Positions 6,369-6,881 of a DNA stretch of 43,134 nucleotides are shown here, piece after piece; the stretch's first letter is position 1, and the number at the start of each line of letters is the position of its first letter. The stretch is from Bacilli bacterium (GTDB taxonomy: Bacteria; Bacillota; Bacilli; JBOFGC01): contig JBOFGC010000083.1 in the NCBI GenBank assembly GCA_051648945.1, positions 1 through 43,134 on the forward strand, in the 5' to 3' direction. The notes beneath the pieces are model-generated. The model was not told the DNA's origin and ran no database searches. It was given only the letters and a program-made list of their open reading frames with translations. The position numbers were made by a program, and so were the translations under genes.

Positions 6369-6881
6369 ATGAGCGCACCAACTACTGTAATTCTGTACCG
6401 CGACGAGAAAGAAATCGGTCGTGAGTTCTATAACATCGGATGGACCGGAGACGACGTTCGTTTAGCGGATGAGCTGTCAAATATGATGGTTCGATTTGAC
6501 GCGGACTCTGTTTGGGCTTACGGTAAACTACGCACGTTGGATAGCCTGAGTCAACTAAAATCGGATACTCCGGCACATCGTGAAAAGAAACAACTAGAGG
6601 ACGAAGAATCTCGTCGACTATTCATCAGTAAAATGCGTCCAAGTGAGGCATCCTTCGAACTCGCGATGAAAATCGACAAGAATCGTATGCCTTTGTCTTT
6701 GATGACAGCAGAAGATATTATCGGCGTTCAGCCTATGACTGCTCCTACTGGTCAAATATTTAAACTGAAGAAATCAGATGCGATTAAGTTAGTCGAATCG
6801 TTAGAGAATCCAGCGGAACCGAATGAACGCTTTCTCGCTGCTGTTCGCCGTCATACAAAATTGATTGGAGAGAAAAAGTAA
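6369..6881 (+). CDS. hypothetical protein, 170 aa, containing a gp23 (major capsid) Gol-region-like segment
   Basis: Strong SD GGGGAGG. Residues ~105-134 NRMPLSLMTAEDIIGVQPMTAPTGQIFKLK resemble T4 gp23 RRAIPNLIAFDICGVQPMNSPTGQVFALR (from memory). Confidence 0.8.
   Translation: MSAPTTVILYRDEKEIGREFYNIGWTGDDVRLADELSNMMVRFDADSVWAYGKLRTLDSLSQLKSDTPAHREKKQLEDEESRRLFISKMRPSEASFELAMKIDKNRMPLSLMTAEDIIGVQPMTAPTGQIFKLKKSDAIKLVESLENPAEPNERFLAAVRRHTKLIGEKK

What the first reader, a model, noticed from the sequence alone, without database searches (positions are those of the whole stretch)
6681..6770. Stand-alone small ORF carrying a look-alike of the gp23 Gol peptide
- Residues ~105-134 of the 170-aa ORF 6369-6881 read NRMPLSLMTAEDIIGVQPMTAPTGQIFKLK.
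- From memory, T4 major capsid protein gp23 residues ~99-127 read VRRAIPNLIAFDICGVQPMNSPTGQVFAL. The core D-I-x-G-V-Q-P-M-x-x-P-T-G-Q-x-F-x-L is shared.
- Established: this gp23 segment (about residues 93-122) is the Gol peptide. It binds EF-Tu and triggers the e14 Lit protease abortive-infection system.
- The rest of the ORF does not look like a capsid protein, and the gene sits far from structural genes under an early-type promoter.
- Possible roles (inference): an early-expressed decoy or competitor for capsid-sensing defences, an EF-Tu or chaperonin interactor, or a capsid-gene fragment captured by recombination.
Basis: partly seen in the sequence, partly recalled or inferred. Interest (0 to 1): 0.65.

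Follow-up and report, generated by a model that had tools for sequence, protein, structure and literature searches.

The report
Capsid-peptide mimic with antitoxin-like tail
An early gene of a previously unsequenced T4-like phage encodes a small three-part protein that joins a copy of the capsid protein's most conserved peptide (the 'Gol' peptide, which host defences read) to the toxin-binding tail of a bacterial antitoxin, so it is a good but untested candidate for a counter-defence protein that works by mimicry.

Summary
Residues 106-134 of the 170-aa ORF 6369-6881 match T4 gp23 residues 100-128 at 15 of 29 positions (z = 8.8 against shuffles). The segment hits only capsid proteins in phage databases.

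It is not a capsid protein or a decayed fragment. The ORF has three modules:
- **N-terminal domain.** A confident ββαββ domain defines a rare family of small proteins in T4-like and jumbo phages (phrog_12830, mislabelled 'major head protein').
- **Gol copy.** A disordered copy of the gp23 Gol region.
- **Tail.** It is homologous to the toxin-wrapping β-α-PxxP-α segment of DUF1778 (TacA/KacA/AtaR) antitoxins, without their DNA-binding domain.

About 34-40 residues of the same gp23 stretch also occur on at least three other unrelated small-protein scaffolds. They are conserved at protein level while synonymous sites have diverged. So this is a portable peptide module under selection.

The gene has a σ70-type promoter and a strong ribosome-binding site. 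It overlaps a conserved downstream gene, and no structural gene lies in the window.

The best reading is an early mimicry or counter-defence adaptor (confidence about 0.35). Function is untested. Rival readings are an EF-Tu/GroEL docking tag, prohead targeting, and a partner of the downstream gene.

The parts
6312..6339 (+). σ70-type promoter-like site: TTGACA, 16 nt, TAAGAT, with TG before the -10 hexamer (extended -10)
   Evidence: 10 of 12 consensus matches. A homologous promoter stretch precedes the syntenic gene P0009 in related contig L010. This is a consensus match only; no transcript data exist.
6321..6363 (+). RNA hairpin whose 3' arm contains the Shine-Dalgarno sequence GAGGGGAGG. 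The promoter's -10 hexamer lies in its loop.
   Evidence: dG = -22 kcal/mol, z = -4.2, and 0 of 200 shuffles fold as well. Inference: read-through transcripts from upstream would hide the ribosome-binding site, while transcripts started at the 6312-6339 promoter lack the 5' arm and stay translatable.
6369..6881 (+). ORF170: a 170-aa three-module protein. The end coordinate includes the TAA stop.
   Evidence: phrog_12830 E = 7e-15. Family members appear. AlphaFold2 model with mean pLDDT 74.
6369..6536 (+). Module 1: N-terminal ββαββ domain (residues 1-56) with invariant M1, S2, P4, N22, G24, W25 and Y51
   Evidence: Alignments A1 and A2. Block-mean pLDDT 79-97, mostly above 90. No significant PDB fold match. 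BFVD matches are the Merlin homologue and small 88-100-aa uncharacterised proteins of T4-like phages.
6537..6683 (+). Charged helical linker (residues 57-105)
   Evidence: helices 57-65, 68-88 and 91-105. Length and sequence vary across the family.
6684..6770 (+). Module 2: copy of the gp23 Gol region (residues 106-134), predicted disordered
   Evidence: pLDDT is about 49-54 over residues 101-130.
6750..6878 (+). Module 3: DUF1778/TacA-type toxin-binding tail (residues 128-170). Layout is strand IFKLK, helix 135-146, linker NPAEPN, helix 153-169. There is no RHH domain.
   Evidence: Pfam TacA1 E = 2.6e-4, 21.3 bits against a cut-off of 21, profile positions 45-79 of 80. A profile of this tail plus P0009 hits the PDB antitoxins 7ak9_C (E = 2e-5), 7zg5_C (7e-5) and 1y9b_A (2e-3), and more weakly AtaR and KacA. 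The helix layout matches KacA βB-αC-PPAP-αD. The tail is 88% identical in DNA over 66 nt to L010.
6881..7327 (+). ORF148: downstream gene whose ATG shares one base with the ORF170 stop (TAATG). It belongs to a widespread family of unknown function in T4-like phages (phrog_2290, motif TWENDGDNY).
   Evidence: 568 phage records. A homologue overlaps the Gol small-protein gene in Citrobacter phage Ci1 and follows TacA-like P0009 in L010. No Pfam, NCBIfam, PADLOC or PDB match.
7419..7440 (+). Intrinsic-terminator-like hairpin that would end the ORF170-ORF148 unit
   Evidence: 9-bp stem, 6 GC pairs, followed by a T-rich tail.

Best explanation
ORF170 is an expressed early accessory protein built from three separable modules:
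1. A small ββαββ domain typical of a rare family of T4-like and jumbo-phage proteins.
2. An intrinsically disordered copy of the gp23 Gol region, the most conserved stretch of the major capsid protein.
3. The toxin-wrapping tail of a DUF1778 (TacA/KacA/AtaR-type) antitoxin, without the DNA-binding domain.

I think it most likely works by molecular mimicry as a counter-defence adaptor.
- **Gol copy.** Before gp23 is made, it docks on whatever host factor reads that peptide. For the T4 peptide the demonstrated partner is EF-Tu (domains II and III), which the Lit protease then cleaves. By occupying or trapping that factor, the Gol copy would blunt capsid-motif-sensing abortive infection.
- **TacA-like tail.** It would bind and neutralise a GNAT-type (TacT/KacT/AtaT-like) toxin when the host's labile antitoxin decays after shut-off. 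T4 Dmd replaces RnlB/LsoB in the same way.

**Shown here:** the three modules, their homologies, conservation of the peptide at protein level, its portability between scaffolds, and the early-type expression signals.

**Inferred:** every binding partner and the direction of the effect (inhibition rather than activation).
For: **The Gol copy is real and specific.**

**It is under selection as a peptide.**
- In 32 small-protein motif segments, V-Q-P is invariant, M is at 97%, and G113 and A108 are at 91%.
- 22 of 34 columns between gp23 M98 and Y131 have the same consensus residue as gp23. Flanking sequence is unrelated.
- Identical residues use different codons in half or more of cases. This excludes recent capture, gene conversion and a DNA-level target.

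**It is portable.** The same 34-40 aa occur C-terminal to the MSLPS domain, N-terminal to a different ~90-aa domain, at the end of a ~260-aa protein, and after a hydrophobic N-terminal (putative transmembrane) segment. All sit in arrays of small early-type genes.

**It differs from gp23 at one buried-looking position.** The aromatic residue at gp23 position 109 (F, Y or M in 7/7) is E/S/K/Q/A/N in 31/32 small proteins. This fits retention of an interaction surface rather than of the capsid fold.

**It is predicted disordered.** That fits a linear motif. The isolated T4 Gol peptide is itself active on EF-Tu and Lit (PMC3014915). Lit and CapRel read capsid proteins through short motifs (PMC13581612).

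**The tail looks like a toxin-binding antitoxin segment.**
- Pfam TacA1 scores above its cut-off.
- The tail profile hits only DUF1778 antitoxins at significant E-values in the PDB, all in their toxin-binding region.
- The predicted helix-PxxP-helix layout equals the KacA segment that wraps KacT.

**Expression signals are early-type.** There is an extended -10 σ70 promoter, a GGAGG ribosome-binding site and no late promoter in the window. The Merlin homologue lies between motA and asiA.
Against: - No experiment or complex prediction supports any partner.
- An early copy of the Lit trigger would naively fire Lit sooner rather than block it. Inhibition needs a trapping or non-productive complex.
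- EF-Tu is far too abundant to be titrated.
- The N-terminal half of the module (…MIRRxxPxLIA) is poorly kept in this ORF (KNRMPLSLMTA).
- The TacA-like tail is found in only two contigs, the window and L010. Other family members lack it.
- The strand IFKLK is shared by the Gol copy and the tail, so the two functions might exclude each other.
- I found no report that GNAT/DUF1778 toxin-antitoxin pairs defend against phage.
- The conserved overlap with ORF148 suggests a partner inside the phage.
- The host is unknown.
Confidence: 0.35

Rival explanations
1. **Docking or folding tag without a defence role.** The Gol module is a portable handle for EF-Tu and/or the GroEL-gp31 chaperonin. It either helps the attached cargo domains fold, or lets early proteins tune host translation or chaperonin capacity ahead of the gp23 burst.
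For: - The N terminus of gp23 targets fusion proteins to GroEL, and the Gol-EF-Tu contact has been proposed to serve gp23 translation and folding (PMC3012670; PMC3014915).
- The module sits at either end of unrelated cargo domains, as a tag would.
Against: - The cargo here is a 56-residue domain that AlphaFold predicts with confidence and that should not need a chaperonin.
- N-domain-only relatives exist without the module.
- The literature does not assign the GroEL-targeting element to these exact residues.
- This reading does not explain the antitoxin-like tail.
Confidence: 0.2
2. **Prohead targeting or assembly modulation.** By mimicking the gp23 N-arm/first-strand region, the module binds the scaffolding core or unassembled gp23. 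The protein is then packaged, like T4 internal proteins, and injected into the next host. Alternatively it caps or delays capsid assembly, possibly that of a co-infecting relative.
For: - In the unexpanded T4 head the gp23 N-terminal region up to L106 is disordered, lies inside the shell and probably contacts the scaffold (PMC9546572).
- The gene sits beside the tRNA cluster. From memory, T4 keeps its internal-protein genes in that region.
- Many small proteins read LIAE at the position of gp23 LIAF. From memory, this resembles the I-x-E site cut by the T4 prohead protease and the FIAE end of the capsid-targeting sequence.
- In contig L005 two adjacent paralogues display two different gp23 pieces that are neighbouring strands in the capsid fold.
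- The small-protein motifs of Merlin and ZPAH1 share lineage-specific residues with the gp23 of a phage of their own genus (CF1 and avDM6).
Against: - There is no late promoter in the window.
- The N terminus (MSAPTT) is unlike the T4 capsid-targeting sequence.
- The LIAE resemblance is four residues long.
- There are no proteomic data.
Confidence: 0.15
3. **Phage-internal pair.** ORF170 is the regulator or neutraliser of the product of the overlapping downstream gene ORF148, in the gene order of an antitoxin-toxin pair.
For: - The stop and start overlap (TAATG).
- The same pairing, with an ATGA overlap, is found in Citrobacter phage Ci1.
- In L010 the TacA-like 89-aa P0009 occupies the same slot directly upstream of the ORF148 homologue.
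Against: - ORF148 has no GNAT or other toxin signature.
- It occurs in 568 phage records, while the full ORF170 matches only 10.
- In L006 three genes separate the two.
- The Ci1 partner lacks the TacA tail.
- The structure prediction of ORF148 failed.
Confidence: 0.1
4. **No function.** The match is a neutral leftover of an old recombination with gene 23, or the ORF is not expressed.
For: - T4-like genomes are mosaics rich in homing endonucleases. Some family members lie next to HNH or GIY-YIG genes.
- The tail junction in this ORF is a recent mosaic.
Against: - The peptide is conserved across members that are otherwise about 25% identical, and across unrelated scaffolds, with synonymous divergence.
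- The frame is intact, with a good promoter, a good ribosome-binding site and coupling to a conserved gene.
Confidence: 0.05

Closest known systems
Gol region of T4 gp23 and the e14 Lit protease exclusion system
   Same: The same ~30-40-aa sequence (15/29 identical to T4 here, and up to about 50-60% in relatives such as P0029 and P0020). It is predicted to be an exposed linear peptide, the form in which the T4 peptide binds EF-Tu and licenses Lit.
   Different: It sits in a 170-aa non-capsid protein made from an early-type promoter. The aromatic residue at gp23 position 109 is replaced. EF-Tu binding and Lit activation are untested.
phrog_12830 small proteins, such as Citrobacter phage Merlin gp284 (annotated 'major capsid protein, T4 gp23/24-like') and Aeromonas phage ZPAH1 orf317
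   Same: The same N-terminal domain, linker and Gol copy. The gene context is early (between motA and asiA in Merlin).
   Different: They are 27-30% identical and end shortly after VQPM. None has the TacA-like tail. Their database name is a mis-annotation driven by the Gol segment.
DUF1778 (TacA, KacA, AtaR) type II antitoxins of GNAT toxins
   Same: The C-terminal βB-αC-PxxP-αD toxin-wrapping segment. It is 13/27 identical to the TacA-type peptide in 7ak9_C and has the same predicted helix layout.
   Different: There is no ribbon-helix-helix DNA-binding domain and no adjacent GNAT toxin gene. It is encoded by a lytic phage and fused to unrelated modules.
T4 Dmd, a phage-encoded substitute for the antitoxins RnlB and LsoB (from my own knowledge)
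   Same: A small early phage protein that would neutralise a host toxin once the labile host antitoxin is lost.
   Different: Dmd is not homologous to the antitoxins it replaces. Here the tail is a homologue of the antitoxin's own neutralising segment. The activity is untested.
Anti-defence proteins that compete with a structural-protein trigger, such as DSAD1 against DSR2 (PMC11087589, abstract seen)
   Same: A phage protein that would blunt a sensor of a virion protein.
   Different: As far as I know, DSAD1 is not a copy of the trigger. Here the candidate inhibitor carries the trigger's own sequence.

Membership tests
T4 gp23/gp24 major capsid protein (Pfam PF07068, HK97 fold) | Full-length match to the capsid profile, above Pfam's gathering score | tested here: not met
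   Only profile positions 20-44 of 376 match. The score is 23.2 bits against a cut-off of 24.4. phrog_138 matches only positions 76-98 of 444.
T4 gp23/gp24 major capsid protein (Pfam PF07068, HK97 fold) | HK97-type fold with A and P domains, about 400-520 aa | tested here: not met
   The protein is 170 aa. The AlphaFold2 model shows a ββαββ domain, helices and a disordered segment. There is no capsid match in the PDB fold search.
T4 gp23/gp24 major capsid protein (Pfam PF07068, HK97 fold) | Location in the head-gene cluster under a late promoter | tested here: not met
   The window holds only tRNA, nucleotide-metabolism and replication genes, and no TATAAATA motif.
Gol peptide (functional class) | Sequence equivalent to the gp23 Gol region | tested here: met
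   15/29 identical to T4 residues 100-128, z = 8.8. 22 of 34 family consensus columns equal the gp23 consensus.
Gol peptide (functional class) | Binds EF-Tu domains II and III | not testable with these tools
   Needs a binding assay or a complex prediction.
Gol peptide (functional class) | Licenses Lit cleavage of EF-Tu at Gly59-Ile60 | not testable with these tools
   Needs an in vivo or in vitro Lit assay. The residues critical in the published scanning mutagenesis could not be retrieved.
DUF1778/TacA type II antitoxin | C-terminal toxin-neutralising segment (strand, helix, Pro-rich linker, helix) | tested here: met
   Pfam TacA1 scores 21.3 bits against a cut-off of 21, at positions 45-79 of 80. 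PDB profile hits are 7ak9_C (E = 2e-5), 7zg5_C (7e-5) and 1y9b_A (2e-3). Predicted helices 135-146 and 153-169 flank NPAEPN.
DUF1778/TacA type II antitoxin | N-terminal ribbon-helix-helix DNA-binding and dimerisation domain | tested here: not met
   The first 44 positions of the Pfam profile are unmatched. The N-terminal domain is ββαββ and belongs to a different family.
DUF1778/TacA type II antitoxin | Adjacent GNAT acetyltransferase toxin gene | tested here: not met
   The downstream ORF148 has no Pfam, NCBIfam, PADLOC or PDB match. Its fold could not be predicted.
phrog_12830 / MSLPS-domain small proteins of T4-like phages | N-terminal domain with M1-S2-x-P4, N22-x-G24-W25 and Y51, followed by a linker and a VQPM motif | tested here: met
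   phrog_12830 E = 7e-15 over its full length. The invariant columns appear in A1 and A2. The profile search scores the window protein at E = 4e-42 among 28 hits.
T4 internal proteins (packaged through a capsid-targeting sequence) | N-terminal capsid-targeting sequence ending in a prohead-protease site | tested here: not met
   The N terminus is MSAPTTVILY, unlike the T4 sequence as I recall it. An internal I-A-E-like site (TAE in this ORF, LIAE in relatives) is only a four-residue resemblance.

The most novel reading that the evidence does not exclude
Phages of the T4 superfamily display short, conserved pieces of their own major capsid protein on early accessory proteins. These pieces are the Gol region and, in at least one jumbo-phage contig, also the neighbouring strand and spine-helix piece. 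They would act as portable 'trigger-mimic' modules that pre-empt or trap host sensors reading capsid peptides, such as Lit with EF-Tu. In this ORF such a mimic is combined with a captured antitoxin tail, which would give one protein two mimicry-based counter-defences. This would be a new class of anti-defence protein. It would also give the first physiological handle on why the Gol-EF-Tu contact is conserved.
Probability: 0.25. Interest if true: 0.85.

Novelty: new variant of a known kind. Interest (0 to 1): 0.65.

Why it matters
The Gol peptide is the textbook case of a phage protein motif read by a bacterial suicide system. Nobody knows why the phage keeps it, or what the Gol-EF-Tu contact does for the phage.

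Finding the same peptide under selection on several unrelated small, early-type proteins gives natural 'Gol-only' reagents. It also turns that old question into simple binding and plating experiments.

If these proteins turn out to be inhibitors, copying one's own trigger would be a new counter-defence principle. If they are tags, they define a portable EF-Tu, GroEL or prohead address that could be used in T4 engineering.

The RHH-less TacA tail is, as far as I could find, the first phage-borne copy of the neutralising segment of a GNAT-toxin antitoxin. That would implicate this very common toxin-antitoxin family in phage defence.

There is also a practical point. These genes are mislabelled 'major capsid protein' or 'major head protein' in GenBank and PHROGs. 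That can mislead g23-based diversity surveys and automatic annotation.

Tried and rejected
- **Source genome.** A near-identical DNA search of 5000-12000 against phage genomes found nothing. The window is the whole contig, so the phage's own gp23 cannot be compared.
- **Word-indexed protein search.** The ORF alone found only itself. The 43-aa tail alone found nothing, which wasted a capped search.
- **N-terminal domain fold.** The PDB fold search gave nothing at E ≤ 0.001.
- **Other libraries.** PADLOC and NCBIfam gave no hits for ORF170, ORF148 or P0009.
- **ORF148 as a GNAT toxin.** Pfam and a PDB profile search gave nothing. Single-sequence AlphaFold2 gave pLDDT 36, which is unusable.
- **TacA-like tail in other phages.** A tblastn gave only a spurious hit.
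- **Primary Gol papers.** Georgiou 1998 and Bingham 2000 are not held. I could not check whether the residues critical for Lit activation are kept.
- **Literature on small Gol-bearing proteins, capsid decoys or DUF1778 in phages.** Nothing relevant turned up.
- **DNA-level explanations, rejected.** These were a homing-endonuclease target mimic, gene conversion with g23, and recent capture. Nucleotide identity is 55-62%, and only 25-53% of identical residues share a codon.
- **'It is a second capsid gene', rejected.** See the membership test.
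Full report
**1.

ORF 6369-6881 (+) encodes 170 aa. I fetched T4 gp23 from a T4 record rather than relying on memory. BLASTP aligns ORF residues 106-134 (RMPLSLMTAEDIIGVQPMTAPTGQIFKLK) to gp23 residues 100-128 (RRAIPNLIAFDICGVQPMNSPTGQVFALR). The alignment has no gaps, with 15/29 identical and 20/29 positive (pairwise E = 1e-6).

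The Smith-Waterman score of 77 lies 8.8 SD above 2000 shuffles of the ORF, and the best shuffle scores 67. Pfam's Gp23 model matches residues 113-137, just under its cut-off. A tblastn of the 38-aa segment hits 2500 phage records, and nearly all listed hits are annotated gp23/gp24-type capsid proteins, from Tevenvirinae to cyanophages and Vi1-like phages. No other such motif exists in the window.

A held review confirms the background (PMC3014915):
- A 29-residue Gol region of gp23 binds EF-Tu domains II and III and licenses Lit cleavage.
- It is the most conserved part of gp23.

**2. Where the window comes from**

The window has no close DNA relative among sequenced phages and is the whole contig. 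Its genes are those of the early/middle arm of a T4-like phage:
- dNMP kinase and ten tRNAs;
- a GT4 glycosyltransferase, thymidine kinase, NrdAB and NrdD;
- NAMPT and Sir2;
- gp47/46, gp45 and gp44.

All are on the + strand. gp46 is at most about 48% identical to Cronobacter and Citrobacter straboviruses. There are no structural genes and no TATAAATA late-promoter motif on either strand.

**3. Anatomy of the protein**

The AlphaFold2 model was built on an 18-sequence family alignment (mean pLDDT 74). It gives:
- a confident ββαββ domain (residues 1-56, block-mean pLDDT 79-97, mostly above 90);
- three helices (57-105);
- a low-confidence, coil-like stretch over the Gol copy (pLDDT about 50);
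- two helices (135-146 and 153-169) separated by NPAEPN.

*Module 1.* It defines a family:
- phrog_12830 matches at E = 7e-15 over its whole length.
- tblastn finds Citrobacter phages Merlin, Moon, CF1, NM4.3 and Ci1, and Aeromonas phages ZPAH1 and AsFcp_4.
- Exhaustive and profile searches add about 25 metagenomic members.
- M1, S2, P4, N22, G24, W25, Y51 and V-Q-P are invariant, although overall identity is only 19-33%.
- The fold has no significant match in the PDB. In BFVD it matches the Merlin homologue, and 88-100-aa uncharacterised proteins of phi-pp2, Aeromonas phage 31 and Marfa, too short to hold the whole linker and Gol copy, though I did not read their sequences.

Merlin gp284 is annotated 'major capsid protein, T4 gp23/24-like' and lies between motA and asiA, in an early region. 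That name is a mis-annotation.

*Module 2, the Gol copy.* Lining up 32 small-protein segments against seven diverse gp23 sequences gives these results:
- The shared stretch runs from about gp23 M98 to Y131.
- 22 of 34 columns have the same consensus residue.
- The core is P104, L106-I107-A108, D110-I111 and G113-V-Q-P-M117.
- One difference is systematic. The aromatic residue at position 109 (F, Y or M in 7/7 gp23) is E/S/K/Q/A/N in 31/32 small proteins.

I read this as loss of a residue needed for the capsid fold while an interaction surface is kept. That is an inference.

Conservation is at protein level. Over the motif, nucleotide identity to g23 genes, or between small-protein genes, is 55-62%. 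Only 3/12 to 8/15 identical residues share a codon. This argues against recent capture, gene conversion or a DNA-level role.

The Merlin and ZPAH1 motifs share lineage-specific residues with the gp23 of a phage of their own genus, CF1 and avDM6 (RRAIP; IAN without Pro, and Cys112). That fits co-evolution with the capsid protein or repeated ancient exchange.

- Residues 129-163 match Pfam TacA1 (DUF1778 antitoxin) positions 45-79 of 80, above the gathering score.
- An 89-aa protein, P0009, matches only this tail (61% identity) and itself hits TacA1 at E = 1.7e-7.
- A profile of the two tails hits 7ak9_C (E = 2e-5), 7zg5_C (7e-5) and 1y9b_A (2e-3) in the PDB, and more weakly AtaR and KacA. These are the only significant hits, and all fall in the toxin-binding region.
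- In KacA this region is βB-αC-PPAP-αD and wraps the GNAT toxin KacT (PMC6698736). The predicted layout here is the same: IFKLK, helix, NPAEPN, helix.
- The ribbon-helix-helix domain is absent.
- The strand IFKLK is at once the end of the Gol copy and the start of the tail.

**4. The Gol peptide is a portable module**

Besides the MSLPS family, the same 34-40 aa occur in these contexts:
- at the N terminus of about 110-150-aa proteins with a different C-terminal domain (P0029-P0033, P0035);
- at the C terminus of about 260-aa proteins (P0034, P0036);
- after a hydrophobic N-terminal (putative transmembrane) segment (P0015).

Several of these pass Pfam's Gp23 cut-off, always at the first about 50 profile positions. 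Their contigs are T4-like or jumbo-phage-like, up to 450 kb. The genes lie in runs of small same-strand genes.

In L005 the gene next to P0029 is a paralogue of the same C-terminal domain. It carries a different gp23 piece (IEAKSRKLKA… plus the start of the spine helix; Pfam Gp23 positions 135-197, E = 1e-5). From the published description of the I-domain linkers (PMC9546572), I infer that these two pieces are neighbouring strands in the capsid fold.

**5. Gene context and expression signals**

- A σ70-type promoter with an extended -10 lies at 6312-6339.
- A stable hairpin at 6321-6363 (dG = -22 kcal/mol, z = -4.2) pairs the Shine-Dalgarno sequence, and the -10 hexamer sits in its loop. Only promoter-proximal transcripts should therefore be translatable. 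From memory, T4 uses this arrangement for several genes.
- The ORF170 stop overlaps the ATG of ORF148 (TAATG). A terminator-like hairpin follows at 7419-7440.

ORF148 belongs to a widespread family of T4-like proteins of unknown function. It matches phrog_2290 and 568 phage records, and in phage JS10 it lies in the tRNA region.

The pairing recurs:
- In Citrobacter phage Ci1, the 138-aa Gol small-protein gene is overlapped by an ORF148 homologue inside the tRNA cluster.
- In L006 and L007 the two lie about 1 kb apart, in a syntenic region from GT4 to the GrcA-like gene.
- In L010, the closest relative (59-80% protein identity for the neighbours), the slot upstream of the ORF148 homologue holds TacA-like P0009.

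DNA comparison with L010 shows the same terminator and a homologous promoter stretch. It shows 88% identity over the tail, but no homology over GT4 or over the part of ORF170 encoding the N-terminal domain and Gol copy. ORF170 is therefore a mosaic. Either an MSLPS-Gol gene was joined to a P0009-type gene, or P0009 is a deletion derivative.

**6. Mechanism**

*What is shown.* The protein has three modules. The capsid peptide is under selection and is portable. The tail is homologous to a toxin-binding antitoxin segment. The expression signals are early-type.

Lit and CapRel detect capsid proteins through short motifs (PMC13581612), and CmdTAC also senses gp23 (PMC11618068). My best reading (0.35) is therefore an early mimicry-based counter-defence adaptor. 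The tail would neutralise a GNAT-type toxin when the host antitoxin decays.

The main objections are these:
- An early trigger copy should activate Lit, not block it.
- EF-Tu cannot be titrated.
- The tail is rare.
- GNAT toxin-antitoxin pairs have not been reported to defend against phage.

The rival readings are:
- a docking or folding tag for EF-Tu or GroEL (0.2), based on GroEL targeting by the gp23 N terminus (PMC3012670);
- prohead targeting or assembly modulation (0.15), because the gp23 N-terminal region up to L106 lies inside the unexpanded shell near the scaffold;
- a partner of ORF148 (0.1);
- no function (0.05).

These tools cannot separate them.

**7. Comparison with known families, and verdict**

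ORF170 is not a gp23/gp24 family member. It fails on profile coverage, fold and location. It is not a complete DUF1778 antitoxin either, since it has no RHH domain and no adjacent GNAT gene.

It is a member of the phrog_12830 family. It carries a Gol-equivalent sequence and a TacA-type neutralising segment. I found no paper describing Gol-bearing small proteins or phage-borne TacA tails.

I rate it a new variant of a known kind (phage accessory proteins that act by mimicry) with interest 0.65. There is a 0.25 chance that it represents a new 'trigger-mimic' class.

Noticed in passing
window 6321-6363: A stable RNA hairpin (dG = -22 kcal/mol, z = -4.2) pairs the Shine-Dalgarno sequence of ORF170. 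The -10 hexamer of the promoter-like site lies in its loop. This looks like a switch that would allow translation only from promoter-proximal transcripts.
   Followed up: partly
window 5101-6315: A GT4-family glycosyltransferase (Pfam Glyco_transf_4, Glycos_transf_1 and 'GT4-conflict') with a TTG start. It sits between the tRNA-cluster terminator (5047-5068) and the ORF170 promoter. It is absent at this position in related contig L010, so it looks like an inserted cassette. A 36%-identical copy exists in L006 and L007.
   Followed up: partly
L005 6426-6776 (next to P0029 at 6001-6426): A 116-aa protein carries a second, different piece of gp23 (IEAKSRKLKA plus the start of the spine helix; Pfam Gp23 positions 135-197, E = 1e-5). 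It sits on the same type of C-terminal domain as its Gol-bearing neighbour. So two adjacent paralogues display two neighbouring capsid segments.
   Followed up: partly
window 7630-8013: A 127-aa stand-alone glycyl-radical protein (Pfam Gly_radical E = 3e-17, GrcA-like 'spare part'). It lies 22 kb from the full-length NrdD at 29998-31851 and is conserved in L006, L007 and L010.
   Followed up: no
window 1427-5034: A cluster of ten tRNA genes (Met, Arg, Ser, Leu, Asn, Tyr, Gly, Thr, Ser, Trp) lies just upstream. The Gol small-protein genes of Ci1 and the ORF148 family in JS10 also sit in or beside tRNA clusters.
   Followed up: partly
window 14613-15671, 26805-28247, 28708-29442: An NAD-related gene set: a NadR-like cytidylyltransferase/Nudix protein, nicotinamide phosphoribosyltransferase and a Sir2-family protein.
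   Followed up: no
window 8361-9800: A 479-aa protein with DUF2828 and DUF7788 domains (phrog_850, labelled 'RNA-binding protein'), set between terminator-like hairpins.
   Followed up: no
L010 2285-3007; L002 4440-4799; L008 6828-7535: Homing-endonuclease genes (GIY-YIG or HNH) lie next to or near several Gol-module genes or their syntenic slots. In L010 one interrupts the synteny between the GrcA-like gene and the ORF65 homologue. This may be chance, given how many such genes these genomes carry.
   Followed up: no
P0002, P0003, P0016 (L006 8001-8489): In one subgroup the C-terminal half of the Gol motif is partly duplicated (…GVQPMQ…FFKMKPLEAPTGKIFKL). The metagenomic protein P0011 repeats a degenerate motif (DDVCGVQIITSPTG) twice.
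   Followed up: no
L006 8470-8985 and 8982-9278: Two adjacent paralogous small genes share the motif …VINGxxGVxxIxCxxxxGY…HLLxGGWMxV…MNVYDKSGxLIC. They sit between the Gol small-protein gene and the ORF148 homologue. Their function is unknown.
   Followed up: no
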